A stretch of DNA of 64,000 nt from a virus. Its lineage: Duplodnaviria; Caudoviricetes. The stretch covers positions 1 to 64,000 of IMG/VR virus record IMGVR_UViG_3300033064_000910; one strand, 5' to 3'. Position 1 is the first letter of the stretch, and every line of letters begins with the position of its first letter. Of the stretch, positions 9,501-64,000 are shown piece by piece. The translations under genes and the position numbers were made by a program. The notes below the pieces were generated by a model that did not search any database, was not told the origin of the DNA, and saw only the letters and a program-made list of their open reading frames with translations.

Positions 9501-12500
9501 CTAACAAGTGCATCTTCTGTCAACGCAGAACGAGGAATGTTTCTTAGAAATGTACCCTCGCCATAATATACTGAGGATGATGCTAGAAATAATCCACCAC
9601 TTATTTCATTTATAAATAAACTTCCACTTATATCAACCGAGCCCGTTAAACGTGACCCGATTTGAGTATCATATATAAAGTTTGGATTGCCATCAACTAC
9701 ATTTATACTACCAGACATACTTGAATGTAATTGGCAATTATAATATAATGTATTTGGTGCACTACCAGATACTAAGAATATTATTTGTCCAACATCCTCA
9801 CCATTATTAGTTACCCAACTATTGTATCCATTTGTAACACCAAGTGCACTGGCCGAATTAATCCAAAATGGATGACCGTTTGCATTTACATTAAAAACAT
9901 ATTCATAATTTCTATGTAATGTAAGTGTAGGATTTGAACCACTTATTAACCCGTTACTTATGTTATATACGCCACTTCCATCATTAGTTACAGTGAATAC
10001 GTTATCAAATGATAAAGAAGATGTAAATGGAGTTGTTACTTTAAATCCAAAATCTGGACTAACCGAAGCAGTTACACTACCACTTTTAATTTCAGAAGAT
10101 ACCAATGCATCTTCCGTTAATGCTGCTCTAGGAATGTTTCTTAAAAACGTACCTTCGGAATAAATAAAAGATGATGAATCTATTCTAATACTACCGCTAA
10201 AATCCGAACCACTTACAAATGATGCTACTCTAAATCCAAAAGCGGGTGATACTGATGCGGTTACGCTACCACTAGCAATTCTAACGGTATCACCAGATAT
10301 TGCAGATTGTGGGATATCAAATAACCCTTTACCACTACCACTAAACATTGATGCGGTAATATTTCCAATAACTTTTGTTTCACCAATTAATTTTATTTCA
10401 GCTGGAACATATAAAGCATCAACTACATTGATATCACCTTTCATTGATGAGTGCAATTGGCAGTTGTAATATAACGTATCAGGTGCACTTCCTGAAACTA
10501 AAAATGTTATTACACCACTATCTTCACCATTATTAGTTACCCAATAATCATAAGAATTATTAGTACCAAGACCAGATGTTTCATTAATCCAAAATGGATG
10601 TCCAATTGCATTAATGTTAAACGTATATTCTACATTTCTAACTAAAGTTAAATTTGGGTTTGAACCACTTACCAATCTATTGCTTATATTATATAGACCA
10701 CTACCATCATTTGTTACATTAAACACTTTATCTATATCGTAGCTTGGTATTATTCTTGCTGATGATGATGCTATAAAACTACCACTAATTGTAGAAAATG
10801 TATTTACTCTTAATCCAAAATCGGGTGAGATAGATGCCGTTACCGAACCACTGGCAATTCTATTAATTTTAAATGATAATGCCGATTCAGGAATATCAGA
10901 TAATCCTGCGCCACTACCACTAAAGAATGAACCAGTTTCAACTCTTATATATCCACCACTTACAAATAAACTTCCACTAAACTGAGAACCACTTTCTATT
11001 GATGTTACTTTAAATCCTTCGTTTGGTGATACAGATGCGGTTACCGAACCTGATTTAATTTCAGTAGATATTAAAGCCTCTTCCGTTAATGCATTACGAG
11101 GGATGTTTCTTAAAAACGTACCTTCTGCGTATATAAATGAAGATGAATCAATTCTAATACTTCCACTAAAATCAGAACCGCTTTCAAATGATTCAACCCT
11201 AAACCCAAAGTTAGGGGATACCGATGCTGTTACACTACCACTTGATATTCTAAATACTTCAGATGATAGTGCCGATTGCGGAATATCAAATAGTCCTTTA
11301 CCACTACCACTAAATACCGATGCCGATATTGAGCCAGAAAAATTAGATACGTCTGCAAATACTTCAAATCCTTTATTTGGAGAAATTGATGCAGTTACAC
11401 TACCACTAAATATTTTTGAAGTATCTAAATTAGAAAGTGCGGATATTGGAATATCAAAAAGATTTTTACCACTACCACTAAATGAACCAGAATTCAAAAA
11501 TACACCAGCTCCACTTATAAATAAACTTCCGGTAAATTGAGAACCATTTTCTAATGATTCTACTTTTAATCCAAAATCAGGTGATACGGATGCAGTTACA
11601 CTACCAGATGCAATTTTATTTGGAGAAAATGAAAGGGCAGATTCCGGAATATCAAATAAGTTAGCACCACTACCAGAATAAACTGAACCTGATGTGATTG
11701 AAATATTTCCACTTACAAATAAATTTCCAACAAAAGTAGAACCAGCCGTAACAGATGTTACTACAAATCCCTCAACAGGAGAAACCGATGCAGTTACGGA
11801 TCCAGATACTATTTTTGTTGCTACTTGTGGAGATACTATTATTCCCGTTAACCTACTACCATCTCCTTGAAACGAACCACTAATATCAGAACCACTTACT
11901 TCGTTAGTAAAAACTTGAAATACCCTAAGACTTCCACTTATATCAATACTACCAGTAAATTGAGAACCACTTAAAGGTGATTCTACTTTAAATCCAAAAA
12001 CAGGAGATACCGATGCTGTTATACTACCACTAGCTATTCTAGATGGTGAAAACGATAATGCCGATTCTGGAATATCAAATAAACCAGCACCACTACCAGT
12101 AAACATAGATGCGGTAATAGTTGATTTAAATATTGCCGGTTGGCTTACGTTTAAACTACCACTTACAATTGCATCTCCAATAATTAAAACTTCTGGTCTT
12201 CTTTGTAAAAGAGCATCTACTACATTAATTGTACCCGCCATTGATATGTGGTATTCACAATTGTAATATAGTATTGATGGTGCATCATATGGTACAACAA
12301 ACTCTATTGTTCCAAGATCTTCACCATTGTTTGTAACACCAGTATTATATGCATTATTAGAAGTAGAGCCAGCAATCGTTTTAATCCAAAATGGGTGGCC
12401 GGATGCGTTTATATTAAATGTATAGGTTACTCCTCTTACTAATGTTATTGTAGGATTAGCTACTGTGGTATCACCATTAAATACATAGTTTCCAGTATCA

Positions 12501-33658: not shown

Positions 33659-36600
33659 TTATGCGATTGAACCCGTCACTAACCATTTCCAATCAGAGCC
33701 ATCATACATATATAAATTTGTTTTACCATACGATGCTGATGCTACTAACATTCCAGCTTGTCCACTTGGGAAAGATGTTACCGGTGTTAGTTTAACAACA
33801 TTATTAATATTTAAACTACCTGTAATATTAACCGAACCAGTAAAATTAGATGAACCACTTACATATAATGCGTTTTGTGTACCACTACTTATAATTTGTA
33901 ATCTAGAACCATTATCAGTTGGAGATGTTAAGTTGGATATTGCAACATTACCCGGTGATGGGAATATTCTCATATAATTACCACCTATCTCATCACCAAA
34001 ATTTAATTGAGTACCTCTAACAGAACCAACATATAAAGTACCAGCAGAATATATATTTGCAAATCGAAATGATGGAGTACCAATTGTATATGTGTTATTT
34101 GATGATGGTGCTATTACTCCAGCGATTGTCAATGAACCAGTCATATTTACCGAACCAGTAAATGATGATGAACCACTTACTTGCAGTTTATCATTTCCGT
34201 TATCAATTGTCTGTCCTAATAATAAATCTCCGTATATTGCAGTTAATGTTGTTGATGAATTACCTAATACAGTAGTGTTTGAGCCTAAGCCTGTGGAGTT
34301 GTAGCCTATTACTATTTGATTGGTTTGAGCATTTGCCAAAGGCATAGCTAGTTGTCCAATCAAAATTGAGTTATCAATAGTAGTTAATGAGTTAGAAGTT
34401 GAACCACCAAAGTATCTGCCTGCCGTAGCACCAAAAGCAACATTATTTGAACCGCCTGAAACGCTTAAAAAAGTTTGAGAACCTAATGCAGCATTATTTG
34501 TACCTGTGCCTAGTAGTTGTAATGAATTATGTCCTACTGCAGTATTGGATACAGTAGTAGTATTTGCGGATAAAGCAAGTTGTCCAATTGCAATATTCAG
34601 ATTGCCTGTTGTATTATTTAGTCCTGCACTAGTACCCAAAAATACGTTATTAAAACCTGTTGTATTATCTCTACCAGCAGCTTGTCCAATGAAAGTATTT
34701 GACTGACCTGTTGTATTAGATTGTCCTGCAAGATACGAAACAAATGTATTATTTTGCCCTGTTGTATTTCTTCTACCTGCATTTTGTCCTATAAATGTAT
34801 TACTAATAATACTACTTGCTCTTATTCCTATACTTTCTGTACCAGCACTATTAGCAAAAATAGATGAAGCAGAACTTGTGCCAATAATCTTAATACTGAA
34901 TACAACAGTACCATCAAAGTCAGTCGTAGGTGTTATAGTTAAAACACTTGTTGTGGTTGCTAATGGACCTATATTTCCTGACGCATTAACACCACTTACA
35001 AAAGTAGGTCCGCCATAAGCAATGGATATAGAGCCTGCGGTTCTTCCTGTTATAGTATAAGTAACTTGATAGTAAGTTCCAATTACCGCTGCTAATGTTG
35101 TTGTTAAAGAAGTTGTTGAACCTGCCGTATGCGTATAACCACCTACGTTTAAGTTAGTACCTGCTAATGTCCAATTCGTACCTGTTCCTGTTACCGCAGC
35201 TAACTCTGAACCTAATGGTGCAGTATCTGAAGCAGTAGTTCCTGTGAAACGAGTTAATCCAAAGGTAGTTAATGACCCACTTATATTTACCGAACCAGTT
35301 ATAGTTTGATTACCATAGAAAGTATTTGCCGATTCCGTTTGTGCGAATAAATTATAGTTTTGTATTTGTGCTGACGAACTTACTAATCCAACTGCTTTTA
35401 ATGATGCCGTATATGCTTCAATACCATTTACCTCACCTATTATAGAACCAGTGAAAGTATTTAAAGATGCGGTTGTTTGTAGTATTCTATTTCCAACACT
35501 ATCGTTTAATGATGTGTAAGTATTTAAAGATGATGTTGTTACAAATGTTGTTGGAACAAATGCCGTTGTTTGTACCGTTTCATCGGCGAATCCAATTGCT
35601 AATGTATTAATACCAATTTCCCTAGTTAATGGCTTTTGAAATTCTATATCCAAACTAAGTTGAGGTCCTCCATTATAAGAAGAATGCTGAAACGCCTCAG
35701 TTCTTTTATTTACGAATACACCACCTTGTTCTACAGTGTTTGATATGGTTTCGGAACCTTGAGTACTTGTATCACCACCAATACTTAAAGTACCACTTAC
35801 GTTTAATGAACCTGTTATTGTTTGATTTCCTATAAATGTATTTGAACCAATGAAATTTGCAGGTCCGATATTTGTGAAAGTACCCGATGATGATACTGTT
35901 AATGAACCAATAATAGTTGTTGAGCCACTTATATTAACTGAACCAGTAAATTCTTGCTTATCACTACTTGCATCACCAAATTTGTTACTTCCACTTGAGT
36001 AAATGATTGAGGACGAAATAAAAGTTACAAATAATTCACTTGTTTGAATTTTACCATTAACATTTAAATTCCCACTTATAGTTTCATTTCCGGTTACCGT
36101 TAAAGTAGTACCATCAAATTTAAGATTACTTTCAACCGTTGCGTTTGGTGCTGACCCATTTAAAGTTAATATACCATTATCAGTTGTACCACTTATAGAT
36201 AATGCTCCACTAGTCCCAGAAGTTCCAGAAGTTCCTGATGTACCACTACTTCCGCTTGTGCCAGAAGAACCCGATGTACCACTACTTCCACTTGAACCAG
36301 ACGTTCCTGATGTTCCACTACTTCCACTAGTCCCAGAAGAACCTGATGTACCACTACTTCCACTAGTCCCAGAAGAACCCGATGTACCACTACTTCCAAA
36401 GAAAGTTCCATTTACACCACTAGTCCCACTTGTTCCAGAAGTTCCCGATGTTCCATTTACTCCGCTTGTTCCAGAAGTTCCTGAAGTACCAGTATCAAAA
36501 CCTCTCGGTCCTGTTGGTCCTTGAACTCCTGCCGTTGCTATTACTATTTCCGGTCTTGAAGTTTGGACAGTTATTTCCGTTATCGCAGTTTCAATTGCAA

Positions 36601-36661
36601 CATTGGTTTTTGGTACTTCAACTTGGACAGTTGTTATATCTTTGTTTATCTGTATTGACAT
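33659..36661 (-). CDS. Fibre/adhesin-like protein (1000 aa): short collagen segment, (GTS)n tract, YadA-head-like NTFIG repeats
   Basis: GVQGPTGPRG; GTSGTSG tract at about 36200-36490; ISSSIIYSSGSNKFGD module; 14-aa repeats NTFIGQNAGRRNTTG / NTFVSYLAGQSNTTG / NVFLGTSAGLNNTTG. Confidence 0.75.
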   Translation of the reverse strand: MSIQINKDITTVQVEVPKTNVAIETAITEITVQTSRPEIVIATAGVQGPTGPRGFDTGTSGTSGTSGVNGTSGTSGTSGTSGVNGTFFGSSGTSGSSGTSGSSGTSGSSGTSGSSGTSGTSGSSGSSGTSGSSGTSGSSGTSGTSGTSGTSGALSISGTTDNGILTLNGSAPNATVESNLKFDGTTLTVTGNETISGNLNVNGKIQTSELFVTFISSSIIYSSGSNKFGDASSDKQEFTGSVNISGSTTIIGSLTVSSSGTFTNIGPANFIGSNTFIGNQTITGSLNVSGTLSIGGDTSTQGSETISNTVEQGGVFVNKRTEAFQHSSYNGGPQLSLDIEFQKPLTREIGINTLAIGFADETVQTTAFVPTTFVTTSSLNTYTSLNDSVGNRILQTTASLNTFTGSIIGEVNGIEAYTASLKAVGLVSSSAQIQNYNLFAQTESANTFYGNQTITGSVNISGSLTTFGLTRFTGTTASDTAPLGSELAAVTGTGTNWTLAGTNLNVGGYTHTAGSTTSLTTTLAAVIGTYYQVTYTITGRTAGSISIAYGGPTFVSGVNASGNIGPLATTTSVLTITPTTDFDGTVVFSIKIIGTSSASSIFANSAGTESIGIRASSIISNTFIGQNAGRRNTTGQNNTFVSYLAGQSNTTGQSNTFIGQAAGRDNTTGFNNVFLGTSAGLNNTTGNLNIAIGQLALSANTTTVSNTAVGHNSLQLLGTGTNNAALGSQTFLSVSGGSNNVAFGATAGRYFGGSTSNSLTTIDNSILIGQLAMPLANAQTNQIVIGYNSTGLGSNTTVLGNSSTTLTAIYGDLLLGQTIDNGNDKLQVSGSSSFTGSVNMTGSLTIAGVIAPSSNNTYTIGTPSFRFANIYSAGTLYVGSVRGTQLNFGDEIGGNYMRIFPSPGNVAISNLTSPTDNGSRLQIISSGTQNALYVSGSSNFTGSVNITGSLNINNVVKLTPVTSFPSGQAGMLVASASYGKTNLYMYDGSDWKWLVTGSIA

Positions 36662-43878: not shown

Positions 43879-43881
43879 ATG

Positions 43882-43893
43882 CAAATATACGAA
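43882..43893 (-). promoter_or_regulatory. Bacteroidota-type -7 promoter element (TTCGTATATTTG, contains TAnnTTTG)
   Basis: Identical 12-mer also at 60227..60238; both lie directly upstream of accessory enzyme genes. Confidence 0.65.
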
Positions 43894-46134: not shown

Positions 46135-46728
46135 TTATGCTATTTCAGTTATTATTTCTCTCATTAAATCCTGTGCTTTACAGTATTCACCACAAGCATC
46201 AGTACCAATTTGTTTTAGTGGATTTACGGATTCGTTCATTGGGACCATAAATGCACCATGCGTTGATGGGTTTGAAACAAAGTCCCAACCAATCAATTCA
46301 AAATCGTCTGCCACTTCTACTTTATTTCCACTCAAAGGTTTAGTTGAACCCATACCTCTTGATGAAATACCCAATAGGATACCAGCTTTTAGTAGTTCTT
46401 TAAGTATATTACCAGATGGTGTGGATAAAACCTCAACGGTTCCACATAAATCATCACCATCCCACCATATTTCTTTAATATTGTGTGAAACATTCTTTAA
46501 GTTGATTACAGTAGAATCCGGATGGTCTAATTCACCCAATGCTCTACGCTCTTTAATGAACGTTTCGTATTTCTTAGCTTCTCTTTCTAATATAGGCTTT
46601 GGATAAACTCTACCATTTTGATTTTCGGCACCAGCTCTTTGCAAGACACCTTTAACAAGGGTTCTCCCACCTTCATCTTCTTGTACCTTAGCCTCAAATA
46701 ATTTCGTTTCTATTAAAAGTCCTTTCAT
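46135..46728 (-). CDS. gp21: Prohead core protease, T4 gp21-like
   Basis: GVLQRAGAENQNGRVYP, GELDHP, VSHNI, TPSGNI and GISSRGMGS motifs. Confidence 0.95.
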   Translation of the reverse strand: MKGLLIETKLFEAKVQEDEGGRTLVKGVLQRAGAENQNGRVYPKPILEREAKKYETFIKERRALGELDHPDSTVINLKNVSHNIKEIWWDGDDLCGTVEVLSTPSGNILKELLKAGILLGISSRGMGSTKPLSGNKVEVADDFELIGWDFVSNPSTHGAFMVPMNESVNPLKQIGTDACGEYCKAQDLMREIITEIA

Positions 46729-56037: not shown

Positions 56038-56067
56038 ATAGTTATCTTACTATATAAATATTGGATA

Positions 56068-56469
56068 TTATTCTTTTACAACTTTCATACCAGAACTAGC
56101 CGGTTGTTGAGCTTGTTGTCTTTGCTGTTCAGCTTGTTGTTTTCTAGTAGGTGCTCCAGGTTGGTATTGAATTGTACCATCCTGTATATTAACTCTACCT
56201 TGAGGATATTGCTCATCTAAAGCATCGAGTATATCTCTTAATTCTTTATTAGTAGCTGCTAATTCTTCTTGTCCTTGTACTAAAAATTCATCCATAGAGA
56301 TTATATCTAATTCAATTTCTTTTTTCCTAACATAGATTTTTCCAAATTCTTGAATAATCGATGCCGCTTTATCGTTTAGCTCGGTGATGCTTTTTAATAC
56401 ACCTTCATCTAATTTTACCGATTCAATCTCAATTGATTGTTTTTGTGGGATTTTATCTAATTCTGCCAT
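56068..56469 (-). CDS. Small coiled-coil protein (133 aa), paralog of 60265..60516
   Basis: LDALDEQYPQGRVNIQDGTIQY vs LADLNQKYPNGEINLVEGNVTF; Gln-rich tail. Confidence 0.7.
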   Translation of the reverse strand: MAELDKIPQKQSIEIESVKLDEGVLKSITELNDKAASIIQEFGKIYVRKKEIELDIISMDEFLVQGQEELAATNKELRDILDALDEQYPQGRVNIQDGTIQYQPGAPTRKQQAEQQRQQAQQPASSGMKVVKE

Positions 56470-56504
56470 AAGTTTTTGTTTTTGTTTTTATATATATAAG
56501 TATA

Positions 56505-56894
56505 TTACTTTTTATTTTTTAATATATTAGTTGTACTAAATCCTTCTATTTTTTCAAAAAATTCAATACTAGGTACATTCTCCAATCCTATTATTTCTTT
56601 ATATTTGTATTCACCACCAATAACCATTATATCCGTATCCCATTCTTTTATACAATTACGAAGTTCATCATCTGTATCAAACGATACAACTGAATTAACA
56701 CCAGCAATAGCAGATAAGAATTCCATACGGTCATCTAATTTATTAAAAGGTCTTTCTATTCCTTTCTTTGAACGAACTCTTTCATCAGTATCGATACCCA
56801 CTCTTAATACACCCAAAGATGCTGCGTGTAATATAAGTCTAATATGTCCAATGTGTAACACATCAAATGTTCCATTTACCCAAATCTTTTTCAT
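56505..56894 (-). CDS. rfaE: HldE/RfaE domain II-like adenylyltransferase (heptose-1-phosphate to ADP-heptose)
   Basis: WVNGTFDVLHIGHI...VGIDTDERVRSKKGIERPFNKLDDRMEFLSAI..V..V..F...DIMVIGGEY follows the RfaE domain II pattern (NGCFD.LH.GH...G..SD......KG..RP.....R...L). Confidence 0.75.
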   Translation of the reverse strand: MKKIWVNGTFDVLHIGHIRLILHAASLGVLRVGIDTDERVRSKKGIERPFNKLDDRMEFLSAIAGVNSVVSFDTDDELRNCIKEWDTDIMVIGGEYKYKEIIGLENVPSIEFFEKIEGFSTTNILKNKK

Positions 56895-58042
56895 TACAAA
56901 AATTTTTCTAATTCTTTTATTACCGTTTCAGATGTTATCAATTTTGTACATTCAAATTGTCTTTCAGTACCTTTGTGGTCTGGACACCAATTCCAATCAG
57001 ATGGGTCTAATCTCACTCTATTAAAACAACCTTCACATTTTCCTTTTGGTGCAGCAATTCTTACACAATCTTCCATTTCTGCCCAATCGTATGAGAATCC
57101 ACTTATTAAAACAGTTGGTACATTTAAACTCCAACTTAACCAACTTAATCCACTACCTATACCAATAAATGCTTTTGATTTTAACATTTCATCCATAACT
57201 AATTCCAAAGGACCGTGTGGATGTTGAACTACTCCTTTTGGTAATTTGTTTCCCATATAATCATCCCCTTCCTTTGAAAGTAATTTTACCGTATATCCTT
57301 TGTTATTTAACCAATCAACAACAGTCTGCCATCCTGTTGGATTATTCCAAAATTTGGATTGTGCTGTACCAAATACACCGATACAAACTTGTTTAAGTGA
57401 TGGGTCTATTTGTAAGTTTCTTTTTTTAATTTTAGGTTTTACTTCTACAAAATCTAATCCCAATATATCAGAACACATTTTTTGCATTGTTTGTGCTTTT
57501 GGGTCTATTGGATTTTTATAAAGATTAATTCTACTATCATCGTTATAAAACAATCCAATTTTATACATTGCATATAGTCCTTCTACATTTGTTCCTGGCT
57601 CCACAAATGATATTTCAGGATATTGGTCTATAAACATATGATTCATAAATGTTGAAGTTATTACCTTACAATTATGTTTTTTTCTAAATTCATCTACATA
57701 TGCAAACCAAGCCAATGAATCTCCTAATGCCTTTGAATCTATTGCTATATATACACGTTTATCCTTTGCATCGTAAAGATATTCATACCACAATTTTCCA
57801 TTTTCATAAATTTTTATATTCCACTCTACAAAATATTCTATACTACATTTACACCAACAATTATTTTTTATTGTAGTTGAATAATAAATTTTTCCACTTT
57901 TGTTATCTATAAATTCAACGGTATAATCAGAACTTATATTTCCCTGTACTTCCACATATGGACCATTGACAAAATAAATTATTACTTTATTTTTTACTTC
58001 AACTATATTGTTTTTATTTTTCTTTAAATTATCGTATATCAT
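56894..58042 (-). CDS. Aah/TibC-type (autotransporter strand-loop-strand) O-heptosyltransferase
   Basis: KDKRVYIAIDSKALGDSLAWFAYVDEF (LGD catalytic-base motif); FIGIGSGLSWLSW; LISGFS; four-Cys iron finger CEGC...WCPDHKGTERQFEC. ATG at 58042 overlaps the upstream TAA. Confidence 0.85.
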   Translation of the reverse strand: MIYDNLKKNKNNIVEVKNKVIIYFVNGPYVEVQGNISSDYTVEFIDNKSGKIYYSTTIKNNCWCKCSIEYFVEWNIKIYENGKLWYEYLYDAKDKRVYIAIDSKALGDSLAWFAYVDEFRKKHNCKVITSTFMNHMFIDQYPEISFVEPGTNVEGLYAMYKIGLFYNDDSRINLYKNPIDPKAQTMQKMCSDILGLDFVEVKPKIKKRNLQIDPSLKQVCIGVFGTAQSKFWNNPTGWQTVVDWLNNKGYTVKLLSKEGDDYMGNKLPKGVVQHPHGPLELVMDEMLKSKAFIGIGSGLSWLSWSLNVPTVLISGFSYDWAEMEDCVRIAAPKGKCEGCFNRVRLDPSDWNWCPDHKGTERQFECTKLITSETVIKELEKFL

Positions 58043-60219
58043 TAACTCCAAGTTTTAACTGTTAAATCTAATAAAGAAAATCCTTCCGCTTGTTTACTAT
58101 ACAATTTGTTAGTTGTATAACGTGGTCTTGGATAATTAGCAAATACGTGATTATACCAAAGGTCTCCAACATCCCAACCACAATCTTTTAATCTATCTGC
58201 CCACCATTGCTTTTCTCTATTTGGAATTAAATAACAATGTGCAAGGTCTTGATTCGGTGCTGTTTTTGAAAACAACTCATCTATTTTTTCTTTACTTCTC
58301 GATGGATTATCTGCGAATGAAATGAATGGTACATCATCTCTTTCCGATAAGAAACATGCTCTATGTACTATCTCAACAAATTCTTCTAATCCAGTATAGA
58401 TAAATGCATCTGCTTCAAATACTAAAGTGTAATCAAAGTTTTCAGTATCCATAGTTTCTAATGCCATTCTATGTGCCAAATAACATCCGTAGTGTCTACC
58501 TGTCATCCATCCTAAACCTGCACCAGGATATAATTCTCCCGGTTTATTATCTTTACTTATATGTTCAGGCCTTCTACAATTCTCAGCAGGCGCAAATCCT
58601 TCGTATGGTTGGTTTACAATTGGTTCATAATACATTCCATATTTTTCCAATTGTTTAATAGATTGAATAGATACTCTTTCTCTCATATCATCCGGTCTAG
58701 TCAACATATGCTTTATTTGAATACGAGGTTTCTTACGATACCAAGTTCTAAATCCTCTACTAAATTGTTTATAAAAGAATTCATCTGCCGCTTGTGTTAC
58801 GCCTGGAAAATAACTTCCACCATAATCATCCCCACTAATAATACCACCTGGTTTTATTTTATTATACCATATTTTTATATCATTAGTAACATCTTCGTAT
58901 GAATGTCCAGCATCTAACATTATATAATCAATACTATTATTTGTAAATTGATTAGCTGCATTATGTGAAGTATCTTTTATAATATCAAACGAACCATAAT
59001 TATTTGAAAGAACTGTATTATCTATAAATTCATAAAATATATCTCCATTAAATGCTCCTACAATATTTTGGTGCAACTCCTCATCATCAGTTCCTTTGAA
59101 AGTATCTATTGTTACAAAATTAACTTCTTTTTTTAATTCTTTAAGTTTATCTAACAAATAGTTTGCGGATTTACCAAGCCAAGTTCCAACCTCAACCAAT
59201 GTAGAATTAGGTGTAACATTATCAGCAACATAATCGTATAAATCATTGTAAGAAAAATAACCAGGTACTTCATTAAATTCAGGTTGTAATTTTTCTAAAA
59301 TAATTCGTTTAGTTAATTTTAAATCATCATCTATATAAGTTACTAATGGATTGGTATCGTATGTATCCAAATATGTATATAACTTTCTAAATATAGAAGG
59401 TAATTTATAACTCAATGCTTCTTTTACAGACAATGGGTTTAATTCTAATTTAGAACTAAAATAAAACATATCACACGCTGAATAGAATTTATCCACATCA
59501 TTTCTTTCTCCCCATATAATACAATTATCAGGAACAAATTTCATCAATGGACCCCAATAATGTTCAAAATTACCAGCTTGATTTCCTACAAAGTGAAATT
59601 TAATTTTATACTTTTCTAATTGTCTTGCTATTGCAAATATTTCAGCCTGATTTTTACCAGGTGCAAATAATCCAACATTAAGTATGTGTTTCCAAGTTGG
59701 GTCTAATCCTAATTCTTTTTGAGCAGCTGATTTATCAAATGCATATTCTTCAATAGGGTATTCCCATACATCAGTTTCTACTCCAGTATCAATAAATTTC
59801 TGTCTACTCCATTCGGATACTAAAACATATCTATCAGGATGATAAGATATTTCAGATGGATTTGTCAATGAACCATGTGTTGATGCTACTATAAAATACT
59901 TTCGTTTATCTGAAAATATTCTGTCTAATATGTTTGTTGCTAAATCGAATTGTGGTATCTCTTGAAAATGTATAATATCAGGTTGGAATACATTTATAAT
60001 ATCAACTATTTGTGATTTGTTATCTCCAAGTGTGTGTATAGGTACTAATGATTTGATTCTATTTTTTTGAACCACGAAAGCATCACCACCACTATTGTTT
60101 ATTTCAACAATTTCGATTTCAAACTCATTGATAAAATGCTTTACCTGTTTGTATGTATATTGAGGTTGTCCGCCGGTAGAAAGATGTGGACAGACATAAA
60201 GTAACTTTTTCTTTGCCAT
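58042..60219 (-). CDS. Three-domain glycan enzyme: GT4 + class I SAM methyltransferase + GT25-like
   Basis: GT4: PHLSTGG...VG.FAPGKN...ELNPLSVKE (E-X7-E). MTase: VEVGTWLGKS...LDAGHSYE...KPGGIISGDDY. GT25-like: HYGCYLAH...LVFEADA. Confidence 0.85.
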   Translation of the reverse strand: MAKKKLLYVCPHLSTGGQPQYTYKQVKHFINEFEIEIVEINNSGGDAFVVQKNRIKSLVPIHTLGDNKSQIVDIINVFQPDIIHFQEIPQFDLATNILDRIFSDKRKYFIVASTHGSLTNPSEISYHPDRYVLVSEWSRQKFIDTGVETDVWEYPIEEYAFDKSAAQKELGLDPTWKHILNVGLFAPGKNQAEIFAIARQLEKYKIKFHFVGNQAGNFEHYWGPLMKFVPDNCIIWGERNDVDKFYSACDMFYFSSKLELNPLSVKEALSYKLPSIFRKLYTYLDTYDTNPLVTYIDDDLKLTKRIILEKLQPEFNEVPGYFSYNDLYDYVADNVTPNSTLVEVGTWLGKSANYLLDKLKELKKEVNFVTIDTFKGTDDEELHQNIVGAFNGDIFYEFIDNTVLSNNYGSFDIIKDTSHNAANQFTNNSIDYIMLDAGHSYEDVTNDIKIWYNKIKPGGIISGDDYGGSYFPGVTQAADEFFYKQFSRGFRTWYRKKPRIQIKHMLTRPDDMRERVSIQSIKQLEKYGMYYEPIVNQPYEGFAPAENCRRPEHISKDNKPGELYPGAGLGWMTGRHYGCYLAHRMALETMDTENFDYTLVFEADAFIYTGLEEFVEIVHRACFLSERDDVPFISFADNPSRSKEKIDELFSKTAPNQDLAHCYLIPNREKQWWADRLKDCGWDVGDLWYNHVFANYPRPRYTTNKLYSKQAEGFSLLDLTVKTWS

Positions 60220-60226
60220 ATTGTAA

Positions 60227-60238
60227 CAAATATACGAA
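60227..60238 (-). promoter_or_regulatory. Bacteroidota-type -7 promoter element (TTCGTATATTTG) heading the glycosylation cassette
   Basis: Identical to 43882..43893; ends 7 nt before the ATG at 60219. Confidence 0.65.
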
Positions 60239-60264
60239 TTTTTTTTAAAATAACCAAATTTATT

Positions 60265-60516
60265 TTAGAAAGTTACATTACCTTCTACTAAATTAATTTC
60301 TCCGTTTGGATATTTTTGATTTAAATCGGCTAAGATTATATTTAATTCTTTATTTGTTTGAACATATTCATCTTCTATAACTAATATGATTTTATTCAAT
60401 TCAGCTACATCCAAATGCAATTGTCCTGCATTTGCAATTAGTTCGTTTTTGCGGTTATTAAGTTCTTTTATCTTTGATAAAATACTTTCTTCTAATTTTT
60501 CAGTTTGTAATCCCAT
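60265..60516 (-). CDS. Small coiled-coil protein (83 aa), paralog of 56068..56469
   Basis: Shared KLxExILxxIxELN N-terminal part and LxxxYPxGxxNxxxG C-terminus. Confidence 0.7.
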   Translation of the reverse strand: MGLQTEKLEESILSKIKELNNRKNELIANAGQLHLDVAELNKIILVIEDEYVQTNKELNIILADLNQKYPNGEINLVEGNVTF

Positions 60517-60550
60517 AATATTATTTTTTATATATATAAATATATAGTTT

Positions 60551-63500
60551 TTATATTTTTGAAGAACTTATGTATGCTTCTAAAGCTTCCACTTTATCCA
60601 TTAATATTTGAACTGCTTTTGTTAGTGGAACTACTATTTTGTCATAAGATAATGAATCTGTTGTTACTAGACTTCCACTAACTCCATAAGAAACATATCT
60701 TCTTAATTCAGGATCCTCATCTAACCATTCTGCTATAAATCCACCCATTTTACCAATGTATTCTTTTGCGTTTGGCATCGGATATGTCATCGAATAATCT
60801 TCTTTACCATTTGTTTCGTATGTAGTACTATTAACTACTTGCAAAGGTGTATATAAAATAGGTTTTAATTTTTTTATACTATCATATGCACTATTTGGAT
60901 AATCTTCTATATCCGTTTTAATTCTTATAGTAGATGAATCAAATATCAATTCTCTACCAGATATACCAAATACGGTATTACCAGGTCTTAAGCGTGCGGT
61001 TGCAACGTTTGCTGTTTGCGATGGCCAATTTTGCCCAGTCATCTTTGAATTAGTTCCATCTGTTCCAAAACGAATACCACCACTTGTGTTGGATGTTCCA
61101 ATGTAACCACCCGCTATCAATATGTTATTTCCAGCACCAGATACGGTCACATCACCCGCCAATACCTCAATTGCTTTTGCTGTTGCTGATACGTTGGTGT
61201 TTGTAATTTGTATACCAGGATAGGACCCATCTGTTGCTATTTGTATGATTGGTGTAGTTGTAGTTCTTTTAACTGAAGCGTAGTTTGTGGCATTTGATAG
61301 AACAATCAATCCATCTCTGCCAATTTCAGTTTGCGCGAATTGTAGTGATGGTGCTATCGAAGCTGGGTCTATCTGTCCATAAACAATCAAGGTTGCCGTA
61401 TAGGGAATGTATCCATATAGACTTGTCACTGTATGGAAATAATAAGTACCCGCCGTTGGAAACGTCACCGAAAACGTTCCACCACTCATAGAAGTGTAAT
61501 CAGTTTCGGATGGACCAGTCATGCCACTATTATACGCTATGGTTTGATTTGAAATATTCGTACCACTGCGTGCGGCAGTTGTCCAACATTCTATTGATAC
61601 ACTAACGCTTGCATATCCATTAATAAAATTACTATCCGATTCCAATGTTATATAATCACTTCCAAAGTTTGGGGAAGCTAAAACATATGTACCTGCATCT
61701 GCAATAACAACTCCAACAGTATCAAGTGTCTCTTGTTGTACATATAGACTTCCCAAACTCGTATATGTACTGGTGCCATAACTTCCAAAGTTATATGATG
61801 CAGGAGCATCAATGTTAACTGAGGTGCCTGATGATGGGATTGTAACTTCACCTTGCTTAATAAATACTCTTGGTACATTACTAGAATCGGAAATCTTAAT
61901 TTGTTTAAGAGATGCATCTAAAACAATTTGTTCACTATTATGTTGAAAATTTCCGTCCGAAACTTCCCAATCACCAATTTGAGAAACAGTATTCGCATCG
62001 GTTTCGATTTTTCCTCTAATTGTTAAAGTTGCATTATCCCAACGCATATATGGTGGTTTACTACCTACTGCGAAGTGAACATCATCAGGATTATTTCCAA
62101 ATCTAAATTGTCCATCTTCTGCTAAATAAAATCCTGGAGCTGAACCCGTTATCAATGATGATACATCTGCACTCCTTATAAATCCACTCGTACTACTTTC
62201 TTGTCCTAATACTAAACCACGAGTAATAGTTGCATCTTGCGCTAATAAAATATCAGTTGCAACCGAACTAAATGTTGCTCCAAATGATTCCCAATATGTT
62301 GTGTAACTACCACCAGTAGTAGGTTTTGTAGTTGTATCAGCTGGGGTATGTGTTACTTTACAAAGATAGTATTGCCCATCACTTCCTTTTACAACATCAC
62401 GTCTTGTAGATAATGCTGGAGATGCTGGGTCTCTAAAATATTGTACACCCTGAGTCCACGGTCCTCTATATACTACACCAGGACCGGGTCCACCTGCAGT
62501 TCCGGCAGTTCCCGCAGTACCACCACTACCCGCAGTACCGGATGTTCCTGCTGAGGCCGCAATTGACCAAGGACCTGAACCAGGATATCCTGTTAGTGCG
62601 TTTGTATTATTTGTTGCAATGTGTTGATAATTTTGTGCTTGAGCCGATGTACATTGCCAACTCTGGCCGGCATATGAAACTATATCATTTGTGAAATAGG
62701 TATCACCAGCCGTCCAAGCTCCTCTTAATGAACCTTCACTAACTCCTGGTTCAAGTTGTCTAATTGCTCCTATAATTGTTAAAGTATCACCATCCCAAAA
62801 CATTCCCTTTCCAGAAGTAGAAGTGGTTTTGATTGAGAGCCTACCGGTAGTACCAGCTGCGCCATTTTCATATATTCCTAAAAATACACCCGGTCTATCA
62901 TATCCTATAACTCCGGTAGCTGCTGCCGATGAACCCGCAGTTCCCGCAGTTCCCGCAGTACCAGTTTGTCCAATTGCAATATATGGGTCAGTTCTTCCAC
63001 CCGCAATTACAATATTTGCGAATGGAGTGTTTATATCTTTAACTCCAACGTTAATTGTATTTTTTACAAATGATTCTTCAAATATTGCAATCTTAGCTGC
63101 TACAAAGAATTCTTCTTCACCCAAATATTGCCAATGGTCACTATCAACCCAAGGTGCCGCAGAACCACCATTATCCGGTTGTTGAGGTCCTACAATTATT
63201 GCTGGGTTGTGTTTTTTTCCAGTATTAGGACCCGAGCCACTTGCAGCTGCCCAATAATGAGTTTCGTTATTATAGTTTGATGGATTAGGCCATATTACCG
63301 CATCTCTACGTTTATTTGTAGTTTCAACCGCACCGATGTAATCAACACTACCACTCCAAATACCTCTCATTACAATACCAGGTCCTGTATTACCTTCATA
63401 TTGTATTGATAATGATTGTGTTTTAAATATAGTGCTTCCACTTACAATACTTCCAGAATATTCACAATCTATTTGATAAACAATTTCTGCGGTTGGATTA

Positions 63501-64000
63501 TTTACAGGATCATCCCAACCGGTAATACTTCCAATTGTTGCAGGAGTTCCACTTATGAATCCGCCGGCAGTTAAACCGCCGGCTAAAGTAATATGACCTG
63601 GTTTTGATGATAAACTTACTCTACATTTATTTGGAAATCCAAATGTACCAAAAGCATCATATTGTCCACCGCCAGGTCCAACAAAAGATGCCGTATTTGT
63701 TAATTCAAGATTACCCCTATATGCTCTAATAATGTTACTTGTTCCTGTTATATCATATTCTCCGGATACCTTATAAACTACTGATGCATTTTCATTTGTC
63801 ATTGTCACCGCATAAGGAGCAGGTGGTGTAAATTGTACAGATATTGATTGAGTTACAAATTGTATTTGTCTAGCTAATGGTCTTACCAGCACATTAGTTG
63901 ATGAGGAATCTCCTTCAAAATCTACTCTATATACAATTTTTCCAGATGTATTTACAGCTGGTGAAGTCCAACTAATTATATCTCCAATTGTTGCCGGATT
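60551..64000 (-). CDS. Tail fibre, 5'-truncated, with CBM5/12-like modules and a C-terminal intramolecular chaperone (Peptidase_S74-like)
   Basis: Frame stays open from 63892 to the window end (checked). DSSTIRIKTDI...GFIAEWL...LSYDKIVVPLTKAVQILMDKVEALE; GAWTAGDTYFTNDIVSYAGQSWQC and two related repeats. Confidence 0.85.
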   Translation of the reverse strand, partial: NPATIGDIISWTSPAVNTSGKIVYRVDFEGDSSSTNVLVRPLARQIQFVTQSISVQFTPPAPYAVTMTNENASVVYKVSGEYDITGTSNIIRAYRGNLELTNTASFVGPGGGQYDAFGTFGFPNKCRVSLSSKPGHITLAGGLTAGGFISGTPATIGSITGWDDPVNNPTAEIVYQIDCEYSGSIVSGSTIFKTQSLSIQYEGNTGPGIVMRGIWSGSVDYIGAVETTNKRRDAVIWPNPSNYNNETHYWAAASGSGPNTGKKHNPAIIVGPQQPDNGGSAAPWVDSDHWQYLGEEEFFVAAKIAIFEESFVKNTINVGVKDINTPFANIVIAGGRTDPYIAIGQTGTAGTAGTAGSSAAATGVIGYDRPGVFLGIYENGAAGTTGRLSIKTTSTSGKGMFWDGDTLTIIGAIRQLEPGVSEGSLRGAWTAGDTYFTNDIVSYAGQSWQCTSAQAQNYQHIATNNTNALTGYPGSGPWSIAASAGTSGTAGSGGTAGTAGTAGGPGPGVVYRGPWTQGVQYFRDPASPALSTRRDVVKGSDGQYYLCKVTHTPADTTTKPTTGGSYTTYWESFGATFSSVATDILLAQDATITRGLVLGQESSTSGFIRSADVSSLITGSAPGFYLAEDGQFRFGNNPDDVHFAVGSKPPYMRWDNATLTIRGKIETDANTVSQIGDWEVSDGNFQHNSEQIVLDASLKQIKISDSSNVPRVFIKQGEVTIPSSGTSVNIDAPASYNFGSYGTSTYTSLGSLYVQQETLDTVGVVIADAGTYVLASPNFGSDYITLESDSNFINGYASVSVSIECWTTAARSGTNISNQTIAYNSGMTGPSETDYTSMSGGTFSVTFPTAGTYYFHTVTSLYGYIPYTATLIVYGQIDPASIAPSLQFAQTEIGRDGLIVLSNATNYASVKRTTTTPIIQIATDGSYPGIQITNTNVSATAKAIEVLAGDVTVSGAGNNILIAGGYIGTSNTSGGIRFGTDGTNSKMTGQNWPSQTANVATARLRPGNTVFGISGRELIFDSSTIRIKTDIEDYPNSAYDSIKKLKPILYTPLQVVNSTTYETNGKEDYSMTYPMPNAKEYIGKMGGFIAEWLDEDPELRRYVSYGVSGSLVTTDSLSYDKIVVPLTKAVQILMDKVEALEAYISSSKI

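What the first reader, a model, noticed from the sequence alone, without database searches (positions are those of the whole stretch)
56505..60238. Phage-encoded protein O-heptosylation cassette beside giant Ser/Thr-rich virion proteins
Seen: three genes joined by TAATG stop/start overlaps (at 58042 and 56894) behind one host-type promoter: a GT4-MTase-GT25 fusion, an Aah/TibC-like heptosyltransferase that keeps the LGD motif and the four-Cys iron finger, and an RfaE domain II-like adenylyltransferase. Established: Aah/TibC transfer heptose from ADP-heptose onto Ser residues of bacterial autotransporter adhesins (AIDA-I, TibA), and HldE domain II makes ADP-heptose. Inference: the phage makes its own donor and heptosylates virion proteins, possibly extending and O-methylating the glycan. 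Candidate acceptors sit in the same region: over 1000 aa of (Gly-Thr-Ser)n and dozens of Ser-rich xSGSxT beta-turn repeats. This would be a glycan-coated virion (shielding, stability or receptor mimicry), a use of this enzyme family I do not know to be characterised in phages.
Basis: partly seen in the sequence, partly recalled or inferred. Interest (0 to 1): 0.85.

Follow-up and report, generated by a model that had tools for sequence, protein, structure and literature searches.

The report
Phage fibre-glycosylation cassette with TibC-like enzyme
An uncultured T4-like freshwater phage carries a true relative of the bacterial enzyme that puts heptose sugars on adhesins, plus partner sugar-handling enzymes; comparison with other phages and bacteria suggests it sugar-coats the phage's own collagen-like (Gly-Thr-Ser)n fibres, but no experiment has shown the sugar.

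Summary
Three minus-strand genes are joined by TAATG overlaps:
- a GT4 / sugar-O-methyltransferase / GT25-like fusion;
- a TibC/Aah-family (BAHT) O-heptosyltransferase: TIGR04414 281 bits against a cutoff of 200, TM 0.83-0.85 to TibC, catalytic Asp and four-Cys iron finger kept;
- a 129-aa HldE-domain-II-like nucleotidyltransferase.

The "host-type promoter" is not supported. The cassette follows a phage-specific motif that it shares with structural genes.

The GT fusion and BAHT are found in every relative with enough flanking sequence, including a complete 266-kb genome. The nucleotidyltransferase is optional (27 of 80 loci). In 16 of 80 it is followed by an RfaE-domain-I-like kinase, making a split HldE. 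No relative has gmhA or gmhB, so the phage makes at most part of its donor.

The best acceptor candidate is the proline-free (Gly-Thr-Ser)n tract. In prokaryote genomes, the BAHT clade nearest the phage enzyme lies beside (GTS)n/(GSS)n proteins in 17 of 29 loci, against 3 of 51 for classical BAHTs (p = 3e-7). Two other phage lineages show the same link.

Against the ADP-heptose reading: the adenine-reading Arg286 is lost, and Microcystis phage Mel-JY01 has no activation genes although cyanobacterial LPS is reported to lack heptose.

This scan has noted the same theme on many other genomes (324 notes). I found no paper describing it. Nothing here is shown biochemically.

The parts
60525..60543 (-). 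Phage-specific promoter-like motif (ATATTTATA overlapping TATATATATAAAAA) upstream of g83; probable start of the transcription unit g83 / GT fusion / BAHT / nucleotidyltransferase
   Evidence: ATATTTATA: 12 exact copies, all on the coding strand, 5.4 expected over both strands, 0 of 100 shuffles reach 12. Nearly all lie just upstream of gene starts, including the 3508-aa fibre and g921. No terminator-like site in 56000-60700.
60265..60516 (-). g83, an 83-aa helical protein of unknown function; paralogue of g133; present at this place in related loci
   Evidence: BLASTP against g133: 30% identity, E=3e-15. Synteny. No Pfam or PHROG match.
59260..60219 (-). GT4 (GT-B) glycosyltransferase domain of the 725-aa fusion (about aa 1-320)
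   Evidence: PF00534 38.6 bits (cutoff 26.4) and PF13692 30.5 bits (cutoff 27); phrog_2170. Fused directly to BAHT domains in many relatives.
58765..59247 (-). Class I SAM methyltransferase domain (Methyltransf_24, TylF/CmcI-like sugar O-methyltransferase type; about aa 325-485)
   Evidence: PF13578 68.4 bits (cutoff 26.3) with a weak TylF match. TylF reaches 27.4 bits in the G001 orthologue.
58045..58749 (-). GT25-like GT-A glycosyltransferase domain (aa 491-725) with invariant FEADAF (DxD-type) motif
   Evidence: PF01755 18.9 bits, below cutoff 24. Atlas: 21 of 30 nearest clusters carry PF01755, all viral. AF2 model pLDDT 80.7. Best PDB matches are COLGALT1/GLT25D1, E=2.5e-8, TM about 0.6, and Mimivirus R655. 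Invariant E112-A-D114 in alignment A3.
56894..58042 (-). BAHT-family (TibC/Aah-like) protein O-heptosyltransferase, 382 aa
   Evidence: TIGR04414 281.5 bits (cutoff 200). TibC 4rap E=6e-52. AF2 pLDDT 89.9; TM 0.83-0.85 to TibC over 373-377 columns, against 0.40-0.50 for WaaC/WaaF. D110, T226, K230, W305, four Cys and F368 kept; R286 is Val, P300 is Gly.
56505..56894 (-). 129-aa HldE-domain-II-like nucleotidyltransferase (probable heptose-1-phosphate adenylyltransferase); an accessory gene in this lineage
   Evidence: TIGR02199 88.8 bits (cutoff 181.5), against 52.5 for TagD. phrog_7878 121.9 bits, full length. Motifs GTFDVLHIGH and KIEGFSTT, with no STTR5 Arg. Followed by an RfaE-domain-I-like kinase in 16 of 80 relatives.
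56068..56469 (-). g133, paralogue of g83, closing the cassette; preceded by the same AT-rich motif (56485-56498)
   Evidence: synteny.
3557..14083 (-). 3508-aa fibre protein; the proline-free (Gly-Thr-Ser)n tract at 4097-7168 is the main candidate acceptor
   Evidence: 330 Gly-X-Y triplets, 316 Ser, 226 Thr, 0 Pro, 0 Lys. Pfam Collagen 335 bits; no AIDA repeat.
2..1528 (-). Fibre protein (runs off the window) with at least 99 (G-T/S-S) triplets; candidate acceptor
33659..36661 (-). 1000-aa tail fibre/spike protein with 32 (G-T/S-S) triplets; candidate acceptor
60551..63892 (-). Fibre-type gene immediately upstream of the cassette (1113 aa from the first GTG; the frame is open to the window end); only 11 Gly-X-Y triplets
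   Evidence: Homologues of 2300-3300 aa occupy this place in relatives.

Best explanation
This is a phage-encoded protein O-glycosylation cassette that sits in the structural-gene region of an uncultured T4-like freshwater phage.

Proposed mechanism:
- The 382-aa enzyme is a real member of the TibC/Aah (BAHT) family: soluble, cytoplasmic and iron-finger-containing. [quoted passage not shown]
- The most likely acceptors are the phage's own proline-free collagen-like (Gly-Thr-Ser)n tracts. There are about 460 triplets in the fibre proteins of this window, each with a Ser.
- The adjacent three-domain protein (GT4, sugar O-methyltransferase, GT25-like GT-A) probably extends and methyl-caps the glycan.
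- The 129-aa nucleotidyltransferase is an optional booster of the last step of donor synthesis. The isomerase, the phosphatase and, in this phage, the kinase must come from the host.

Shown here: the enzyme family, fold and catalytic residues; the synteny; the optional split-HldE genes; the genomic link between this BAHT clade and (GTS)n/(GSS)n proteins.

Inferred: the donor, the acceptor, glycan extension, and timing with virion assembly.
For: 1. Family: TIGR04414 above cutoff. 180 bits to TibC with Asp110, Thr226, Lys230, Trp305, four Cys and Phe368 kept. Model TM 0.83-0.85 to TibC including the N-terminal beta-barrel, far above the LPS heptosyltransferases. No membrane segment.
2. The only characterised acceptors of this family are proteins, on Ser (PMC4358343).
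3. Position: in all 80 BAHT-selected loci, and in every terminase-selected locus with at least 7 kb upstream, the GT fusion and BAHT lie between a giant fibre gene and g921/terminase. The same holds in a CheckV-complete 266-kb relative and in cultured Microcystis phage Mel-JY01.
4. Gene fusions link the partners: the nearest 50%-cluster representatives are single-chain GT4(+methyltransferase)+BAHT proteins.
5. Donor: the nucleotidyltransferase matches HldE domain II best. In 16 of 80 relatives an RfaE-domain-I-like kinase follows it. Viruses are known to carry such enzymes and to lack the phosphatase (PMC11461863).
6. Acceptor: 17 of 29 genome loci of the nearest BAHT clade have a (GTS)n/(GSS)n protein within 77-5500 bp, against 3 of 51 for classical BAHTs; Fisher p=3.2e-7. 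Several of these are signal-peptide or lipobox proteins in large bacterial contigs. Mel-JY01 and the 735-kb phage LR756501 also have (G-T/S-S)n proteins 1.7 and 3.7 kb from their BAHT.
7. The cassette follows the same coding-strand motif as structural genes, with no terminator in between.
Against: - No biochemical or proteomic evidence exists for any phage of this kind.
- TibC Arg286, which reads adenine N1 and whose Ala mutant is largely inactive, is Val here. It is kept in only 40 of 167 nearest representatives, so the nucleotide of the donor is uncertain.
- The nucleotidyltransferase scores far below the equivalog cutoff (88.8 against 181.5), and its margin over TagD-type enzymes is modest.
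- 53 of 80 relatives lack it at this place. Mel-JY01 has none, while cyanobacterial LPS is reported to lack heptose (PMC4515613).
- In this lineage the fibre next to the cassette has only 0-14 Gly-X-Y triplets. The large (GTS)n fibres lie 45-55 kb away.
- (GTS)n fibres are common in large phages, and I found no close relative lacking the cassette to serve as a control.
- TibC's known substrate is a beta-helix, not a collagen-like rod.
Confidence: 0.55

Rival explanations
1. The cassette glycosylates host proteins or host envelope components rather than virion proteins, to block superinfection or remodel the cell surface. Possible targets are exported (GSS)n surface lipoproteins or adhesins of the host. 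This is what has been proposed for glycosyltransferases in the fibre region of pelagimyophages.
For: In bacteria the partner (GSS)n/(GTS)n proteins carry signal peptides or lipoboxes, so they are cell-surface proteins. PMC7029224 interprets glycosyltransferases and rfaE in the fibre region of T4-like pelagiphages as O-chain modification. The host is unknown.
Against: The BAHT fold matches the protein-specific TibC with its barrel, thumb and iron finger, not WaaC/WaaF. The infected cell would contain hundreds of phage-encoded GTS triplets per fibre chain. The cassette sits in the structural region behind a motif shared with structural genes, in a phage with no sign of lysogeny in this window. 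All its proteins are soluble.
Confidence: 0.15
2. The enzymes are right but the sugar is wrong. This BAHT clade uses a donor other than ADP-heptose (another NDP-heptose or a different NDP-sugar), and the 129-aa enzyme activates a different phosphate ester, as a TagD-like glycerol-3-phosphate cytidylyltransferase would.
For: Arg286 is lost here and in most of the clade. The nucleotidyltransferase is below the equivalog cutoff and also matches TagD at 52.5 bits (1coz 44 bits against 55.7 for the top PDB hit). Mel-JY01 has no activation genes and a host whose LPS is reported to lack heptose. Many relatives lack the gene.
Against: Trp305 (heptose O4) and Thr226/Lys230 are invariant. The best HMM, PHROG and PDB matches are all on the heptose side. 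An RfaE-domain-I-like kinase follows the gene in 16 of 80 relatives and in the 266-kb genome, recreating a split HldE. The STTR5 Arg that marks CTP/UTP-promiscuous enzymes is absent.
Confidence: 0.2
3. The acceptors are the Ser-rich 'SGSxTAS / SSSIIYxSGSxKFGD..FTGS' beta-strand repeats of the fibres, which resemble the strand-loop-strand sites of TibA, rather than the (GTS)n tract.
For: TibC sites are Ser at turns followed by small residues and a strand, as in QNSGGAVITNTSAAV. The window's fibres have 20-21 such motifs in one protein. Mel-JY01's 18%-Ser structural protein with the same motif family lies immediately upstream of its GT-BAHT fusion.
Against: The repeat region has no tblastn match in GenBank phages, with the low-complexity filter on. 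The bacterial loci and the 735-kb phage have (GTS)n/(GSS)n partners but no such repeats. The resemblance to TibA sites is loose.
Confidence: 0.15

Closest known systems
TibC-TibA and Aah-AIDA-I of E. coli (bacterial autotransporter heptosyltransferases, BAHT; TIGR04414; PDB 4RAP/4RB4; eLife 2014, PMC4358343)
   Same: Same family and fold (281 bits; TM 0.83-0.85). Soluble cytoplasmic enzyme encoded next to a repetitive Ser-rich surface or fibre protein.
   Different: Only 30-38% identical. Arg286 (adenine contact) is Val and Pro300 is Gly; the thumb is 3 residues shorter. There is no autotransporter and no AIDA repeat anywhere in the window. The gene is phage-encoded and partnered with, and in relatives fused to, GT4/methyltransferase/GT25 modules. 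The likely acceptor is a proline-free collagen-like (GTS)n tract rather than a beta-helix.
HldE domain II / HldC (heptose-1-phosphate adenylyltransferase) and the viral NDP-heptose biosynthetic enzymes of Tang et al., Science 2024 (read through PMC11461863 and PMC11573728)
   Same: Monodomain cytidylyltransferase-fold enzyme with HxGH and xSTT motifs. Best HMM, PHROG and PDB matches are on the heptose side. Paired with an RfaE-domain-I-like kinase in relatives. No phosphatase, as reported for viruses.
   Different: Below the equivalog cutoff (88.8 against 181.5). Lys rather than F/L at motif position 1, and no STTR5 Arg. Optional within the lineage. Here it has a plausible consumer next door, a phage BAHT, whereas the commentaries leave the role of viral NDP-heptose open.
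Mycobacteriophage virion glycosylation (Freeman et al. 2023, cited in PMC12619734) and glycosylated collagen-like fibres such as Mimivirus fibrils and Bacillus BclA (from my own knowledge)
   Same: Virus-encoded glycosyltransferases next to structural genes that O-glycosylate virion proteins in the cytoplasm. Ser/Thr-rich or collagen-like acceptors.
   Different: Different enzyme families and sugars. No BAHT or heptose is reported there. Here the acceptor would be a tract of up to about 1000 residues, giving hundreds of sites per chain.
COLGALT1/GLT25D1 (GT25 collagen galactosyltransferase) and Mimivirus R655
   Same: Best structural matches of the fusion's third domain (E=2.5e-8, TM about 0.6). 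GT-A fold with a DxD-type motif. These enzymes work on collagen or collagen-like proteins.
   Different: 12-15% identity. The Pfam GT25 match is below cutoff. The phage tract has no Lys or hydroxylysine, so the chemistry cannot be the same. The domain more likely extends a glycan.

Membership tests
BAHT (TibC/Aah, TIGR04414) | Score above the curated equivalog cutoff | tested here: met
   281.5 bits against 200, covering 359 of 374 profile positions
BAHT (TibC/Aah, TIGR04414) | Catalytic base Asp110 | tested here: met
   Asp108 in 'ALGDSLAW' aligns with Asp110 (Ala in the D110A entry 4rb4). D in 158 of 167 representatives
BAHT (TibC/Aah, TIGR04414) | Donor-binding Thr226, Lys230 (beta-phosphate) and Trp305 (heptose O4) | tested here: met
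   All three are identical in the query and nearly invariant in the clade
BAHT (TibC/Aah, TIGR04414) | Arg286 contacting adenine N1 (basis of ADP specificity) | tested here: not met
   Val in the query, Leu in G001, Ile in Mel-JY01; R in 40 of 167 representatives; R in classical plasmid BAHTs
BAHT (TibC/Aah, TIGR04414) | 1Fe-0S iron finger (Cys339, 342, 358, 370) | tested here: met
   Four aligned Cys, C in 147-148 of 167 representatives. Iron binding itself is not testable here
BAHT (TibC/Aah, TIGR04414) | Protomer architecture: N-terminal beta-barrel, GT-B-like core, beta-hairpin thumb | tested here: met
   AF2 pLDDT 89.9; TM 0.83-0.85 over 373-377 columns to 4rap/4rb4. The thumb is 3 residues shorter
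BAHT (TibC/Aah, TIGR04414) | Ring-shaped dodecamer | not tested
   Interface residues are partly kept (Phe368 kept; thumb tip Tyr-Met for Phe-Val). No assembly prediction was run
BAHT (TibC/Aah, TIGR04414) | Gene followed by an autotransporter with AIDA-type repeats as acceptor | tested here: not met
   No AIDA or autotransporter domain in the window's fibres, only Pfam Collagen. Classical plasmid loci do have one
BAHT (TibC/Aah, TIGR04414) | Heptosyl transfer to protein Ser | not testable with these tools
   Needs enzyme assay and mass spectrometry
HldE domain II / heptose-1-phosphate adenylyltransferase (TIGR02199) | Score above the curated equivalog-domain cutoff | tested here: not met
   88.8 bits against 181.5. 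It is still the best-scoring family, ahead of TagD at 52.5
HldE domain II / heptose-1-phosphate adenylyltransferase (TIGR02199) | HxGH and (F/L)xxGxSTT motifs | tested here: met
   GTFDVLHIGH and KIEGFSTT. Position 1 is Lys, not F/L; no STTR5 Arg
HldE domain II / heptose-1-phosphate adenylyltransferase (TIGR02199) | Partnered with a heptose-7-phosphate kinase (RfaE domain I) | tested here: inconclusive
   Absent from this window. Present directly downstream in 16 of 80 relatives and in the 266-kb genome: best match TIGR02198, 99.6 bits, below cutoff 345
GT25 (PF01755) | Pfam gathering score | tested here: not met
   18.9 bits against 24
GT25 (PF01755) | GT-A fold with DxD-type motif, closest to GT25 structures | tested here: met
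   Top Foldseek matches are COLGALT1 (E=2.5e-8). Invariant E-A-D in FEADAF. Atlas: 21 of 30 nearest clusters carry PF01755
GT4 (PF00534) and Methyltransf_24 (PF13578) | Pfam gathering scores | tested here: met
   38.6 against 26.4, and 68.4 against 26.3

The most novel reading that the evidence does not exclude
A widespread and so far undescribed protein-glycosylation system pairs a distinct BAHT clade with proline-free collagen-like (Gly-Ser/Thr-Ser)n proteins, in both bacteria (exported surface lipoproteins) and large phages (tail fibres).

In this phage a ring-shaped iron-finger heptosyltransferase would thread the roughly 1000-residue (GTS)n rod and heptosylate Ser in triplet after triplet. 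GT4, GT25 and methyltransferase domains would then build a methyl-capped side chain. The result would be a bottlebrush, mucin-like glycan coat on the virion fibres.

This would also give viral NDP-heptose enzymes their first concrete function.
Probability: 0.4. Interest if true: 0.8.

Novelty: new variant of a known kind. Interest (0 to 1): 0.62.

Why it matters
- **Substrate range.** If true, it extends the BAHT family from a handful of pathogen autotransporters to a very large environmental clade: 1515 clusters at 50% identity, and at least 154 viral contigs for this lineage alone. That clade would have a different substrate class, collagen-like (GTS)n tracts.
- **Phage biology.** It would show that abundant freshwater T4-like phages carry heavily glycosylated fibres. 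That bears on host recognition, particle stability, and resistance to proteases or grazers.
- **An open question.** It would answer why viruses encode NDP-heptose biosynthetic enzymes, which recent work leaves open.
- **Practical value.** A soluble enzyme that decorates a simple tripeptide repeat would be a useful glyco-engineering tool.
- **Annotation.** The enzyme in a cultured phage (Mel-JY01) is labelled only 'methyltransferase FkbM', and its collagen-like fibre gene is called on the wrong strand.

Tried and rejected
- **Own genome:** none is held for this window, so pathway genes were sought in relatives instead: G001 (266 kb, complete), G002, G004 and Mel-JY01.
- **The look-up of encoding contigs:** I used genome-contig loci instead.
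- **Sigma-70 promoter:** rejected, no enrichment over shuffles.
- **STTR5:** I first misread it as an Arg/Lys at motif position 1. The commentary PMC11573728 defines it as G-R-STT, which the phage enzyme lacks, so I dropped the idea that it marks CDP- or UDP-heptose synthesis.
- **tblastn of the SGS-repeat region against GenBank phages:** no match, but the low-complexity filter may hide repeats.
- **Methylomicrobium lacus chromosome:** uninformative, because the BAHT stands alone among housekeeping genes.
- **Relatives lacking the cassette:** L159 and L160 seemed to lack it within 10 kb of TerL, but the L159 genome has it 13 kb upstream. L160 is a 24%-complete fragment. No cassette-free control was obtained.
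- **PDB profile search with the GT25-like domain:** nothing; fold search was needed.
- **Complex prediction:** not used. An enzyme with a low-complexity substrate is a poor case for it, and copies of the BAHT would pass simply by likeness to 4RAP.
- **Literature:** searches for a phage-encoded BAHT found nothing relevant. No paper on Mel-JY01 is in the library.

Full report
**What the window is**

All sizeable genes lie on the minus strand and form a phage structural region. It contains the large terminase (50936-52531), portal (48652-50427), a T4-type prohead protease S77 (46135-46728), the major head protein (39605-41260) and several tail-fibre proteins. No whole genome is held for it. GC is about 30-34%.

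**The observation**

The three ORFs and both TAATG overlaps are as described. The middle gene is better started at the ATG of the overlap (58042) than at the TTG listed by the ORF finder.

The 725-aa protein has three domains:
- GT4 and a Methyltransf_24/TylF-like methyltransferase, both above Pfam cutoffs.
- A third domain whose GT25 match is sub-threshold (18.9 against 24 bits). Three further results support the GT25 call. The protein atlas finds 21 of 30 nearest clusters carrying PF01755, all viral. The related sequences share an invariant FEADAF motif. An AlphaFold model (pLDDT 80.7) has the collagen galactosyltransferase COLGALT1 and Mimivirus R655 as its best PDB matches (E=2.5e-8, TM about 0.6).

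The 382-aa protein passes the curated TIGR04414 model (281.5 bits against 200) and aligns with TibC at E=6e-52. Its model (pLDDT 89.9) superposes on TibC over the whole chain, N-terminal beta-barrel included, with TM 0.83-0.85. WaaC and WaaF reach only 0.40-0.50.

The 129-aa protein is a cytidylyltransferase-fold enzyme. Its best HMM is RfaE domain II (88.8 bits, below the 181.5 cutoff; TagD scores 52.5) and its best PHROG is the HldE-named phrog_7878 (121.9 bits, full length). Its top PDB hit is 5x9q. That entry is deposited as 'putative cytidylyltransferase'; I recall it as Burkholderia HldC, but I did not check this.

None of the cassette proteins has a membrane-spanning segment.

Instead, the 9-mer ATATTTATA occurs 12 times, always on the coding strand. 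The expectation is 5.4 over both strands, and 0 of 100 shuffles reach 12. Nearly all copies lie just upstream of gene starts, including the 3508-aa fibre, g921 and g83. With no terminator-like site in between, the likely transcription unit is g83 / GT fusion / BAHT / nucleotidyltransferase. That is an inference, not a measurement.

**Functional residues**

The TibC structure paper (PMC4358343) names these residues:

| TibC residue | Role | Phage enzyme |
|---|---|---|
| Asp110 | Catalytic base | Kept |
| Thr226, Lys230 | Beta-phosphate binding | Kept |
| Trp305 | Heptose O4 | Kept |
| Cys339/342/358/370 | Iron finger | Kept |
| Arg286 | Adenine N1 | Val |
| Pro300 | D,D- versus L,D-heptose selectivity | Gly |

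The kept residues are also nearly invariant in the 150 nearest 50%-identity cluster representatives. Arg286 is kept in only 40 of the 167 aligned BAHT domains from those representatives, yet it is present in the classical plasmid BAHTs. So the sugar and phosphate side of the donor site is conserved, while the base-reading contact is not.

**Distribution and synteny**

- At least 154 IMG/VR contigs encode relatives at 73% identity or more.
- The big protein collection holds 2563 proteins at E<=1e-10.
- The 50%-identity library holds 1515 clusters, 711 of them at E<=1e-30.
- In all 80 BAHT-selected loci, and in every terminase-selected locus with at least 7 kb upstream, the GT fusion and BAHT lie between a giant fibre gene plus g83 and g133/g921/g227/terminase.
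- A CheckV-complete 266-kb relative (G001) has the same order, a little further from the terminase.
- Cultured Microcystis phage Mel-JY01 has the BAHT as the C-terminal domain of a 1226-aa GT4-containing fusion, annotated only as 'methyltransferase FkbM', in the equivalent place.
- The nearest cluster representatives are mostly 600-1800-aa fusions of GT4, an FkbM or Methyltransf_24 methyltransferase, and BAHT. The repeated fusion of these modules into one chain argues that the window's two adjacent genes work in one pathway.

**The donor pathway**

- The 129-aa gene is optional: present in 27 of 80 loci.
- In 16 of 80 loci it is followed by a 247-aa PfkB kinase whose best match is RfaE domain I (99.6 bits, below cutoff). 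Together they make a split HldE. G001 has both. This window has no kinase.
- None of G001, G002, G004 or Mel-JY01 has gmhA/SIS or gmhB. The window's other mid-sized ORFs have no such domains.
- So the phage supplies at most the two HldE steps and depends on the host for the rest.
- This fits the report that viruses carry NDP-heptose enzymes but lack the phosphatase (PMC11461863).
- The STTR5 hallmark of CTP/UTP-promiscuous enzymes (G-R-STT, PMC11573728) is absent: the phage enzyme has KIEGFSTT, and none of the 22 unique phage homologues in which the motif could be read has Arg there.
- Against ADP-heptose as the clade's general donor: Arg286 is lost, and Mel-JY01 carries no nucleotidyltransferase while a review states that cyanobacterial LPS lacks heptose (PMC4515613).

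**The acceptor**

The window's fibres contain no AIDA or autotransporter repeats, only Pfam Collagen.

I tested the two candidate acceptors by comparison. I scanned one genome per prokaryote species with an alignment of stand-alone members and obtained 80 loci.

| BAHT clade | Loci with a Gly-X-Y repeat protein within 8 kb |
|---|---|
| Nearest the phage enzyme (33-55% identity, L173-L201) | 17 of 29 |
| Classical (Burkholderia, Lentisphaeria, enterobacteria; L202-L252) | 3 of 51 |

- Fisher p=3.2e-7.
- The repeat proteins in the near clade are nearly all proline-free (G-T-S)n or (G-S-S)n, mostly 77-1500 bp from the BAHT.
- The classical loci carry 1000-2600-aa autotransporter-sized genes instead.
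- The positive loci include large bacterial contigs: a 2.67-Mb Methylococcales contig, an Arenicellales chromosome, 290-308-kb Gammaproteobacteria contigs and Bordetella sputigena.
- Their repeat proteins start with Sec or lipoprotein signal peptides, so they are exported surface proteins. That matches the classical BAHT logic of glycosylating in the cytoplasm before export.
- These bacterial loci lack the GT4 partner. It appears only in phage-like contigs and in the 735-kb phage.
- Mel-JY01 has a (G-T/S-S)n gene of at least 1016 aa, 1.7 kb upstream of its fusion, on the strand opposite to the GenBank CDS. The 735-kb phage LR756501 has a 699-aa (G-T/S-S)n protein 3.7 kb from its BAHT fusion.
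- The window itself encodes 330 + 99 + 32 such triplets with no Pro or Lys.
- The SGSxTAS repeats loosely resemble TibA's Ser sites, and a related motif occurs in Mel-JY01's neighbouring structural protein. They have no counterpart in the bacterial loci or the 735-kb phage.

I therefore rank the (GTS)n tract first and the SGS repeats second.

**Limits of that test**

- Some 'MAG' contigs in the near clade are probably phage.
- The 17 positive loci are not all independent.
- (GTS)n fibres are common in large phages.
- In this lineage the fibre next to the cassette has only 0-14 triplets.
- I found no close relative lacking the cassette to use as a control.

**Comparison with what is known**

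- The enzyme is a BAHT by sequence, fold and catalytic residues. It fails two family features: the adenine-reading Arg and an adjacent autotransporter.
- Virion glycosylation by phage-encoded enzymes is known in mycobacteriophages (Freeman 2023, cited in PMC12619734).
- Viral NDP-heptose enzymes are known, but their role is left open.
- I found no paper on a phage-encoded BAHT or on BAHT-collagen-like pairs.
- This scan has flagged the same theme repeatedly on other DNA: 324 notes in at least 273 genomes, several followed up with the same tentative reading. The finding is therefore not unique to this window. Those notes are not independent evidence.

**Verdict**

- The enzyme assignments are solid.
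- Protein O-glycosylation of the phage's own (GTS)n fibres with heptose is the best-supported mechanism, at a confidence of about 0.55. It is not demonstrated.
- It is a new variant of known kinds (BAHT glycosylation; phage virion glycosylation), of moderate to high interest.

Noticed in passing
L081:2-3049 (+), Microcystis phage Mel-JY01 PP395634.1: A + strand frame of at least 1016 aa with 199 Gly-X-Y triplets (36% G, 32% S, 21% T) overlaps GenBank CDSs called on the opposite strand (1-651 and 739-2298). The translation of the 739-2298 CDS is a 'PEVPxVPLVPE' repeat. The collagen-like fibre gene is probably the real one and is mis-annotated.
   Followed up: partly
window 60265-60516 and 56068-56469 (-): g83 and g133, the small helical proteins bracketing the cassette, are paralogues (30% identity, E=3e-15). 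Each follows the same TTATATATATAAAAA motif. They could be recombination handles for a swappable cassette, or fibre-assembly factors. Function unknown.
   Followed up: partly
window, 12 sites (e.g. 14104, 14124, 33608, 37066, 38878, 39483, 48626, 56053, 60535): ATATTTATA occurs only on the coding strand and almost always just upstream of gene starts. It is a candidate late-promoter element of this phage lineage, reminiscent of T4's TATAAATA.
   Followed up: partly
L169:14860-19999 (G001, 266-kb relative): The homologue of the window's 921-aa NMNAT-like protein is larger and appears interrupted by a GIY-YIG/NUMOD3 homing endonuclease gene. The Poly(A)-polymerase/CCA-adding head domain is split between the ORFs on either side.
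   Followed up: no
window 38906-39469 (-): A GIY-YIG plus NUMOD3 homing endonuclease gene sits just downstream of the major head protein gene.
   Followed up: no
L052:8355-10001, also L055 and L059: A shorter 548-aa variant of the partner protein keeps GT4 but lacks the methyltransferase and GT25-like domains. The C-terminal part of about 230 aa has no Pfam match, which suggests module swapping in the glycan-extending enzyme.
   Followed up: no
L199, L200, L197, L195, L194 (Gammaproteobacteria, Arenicellales, Acidiferrobacterales): In four of these five loci, bacterial BAHT genes are flanked on both sides by small (130-210 aa) proteins with (GSS)n/(GTS)n tails; in L194 and L195 both repeat proteins lie on one side. 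The three inspected (L199, L200) have lipobox-type signal peptides and acidic C-termini. This looks like an undescribed surface-lipoprotein glycosylation module.
   Followed up: partly
window 60551-63892 (-), aa 392-419: The fibre next to the cassette has a sub-threshold match to carbohydrate-binding module CBM_5_12 (24.2 bits against cutoff 26.2).
   Followed up: no
window 42556-43884 (-): A 442-aa protein between the head genes matches DNA-methyltransferase PHROGs strongly (phrog_12517 258 bits, phrog_498 211 bits).
   Followed up: no
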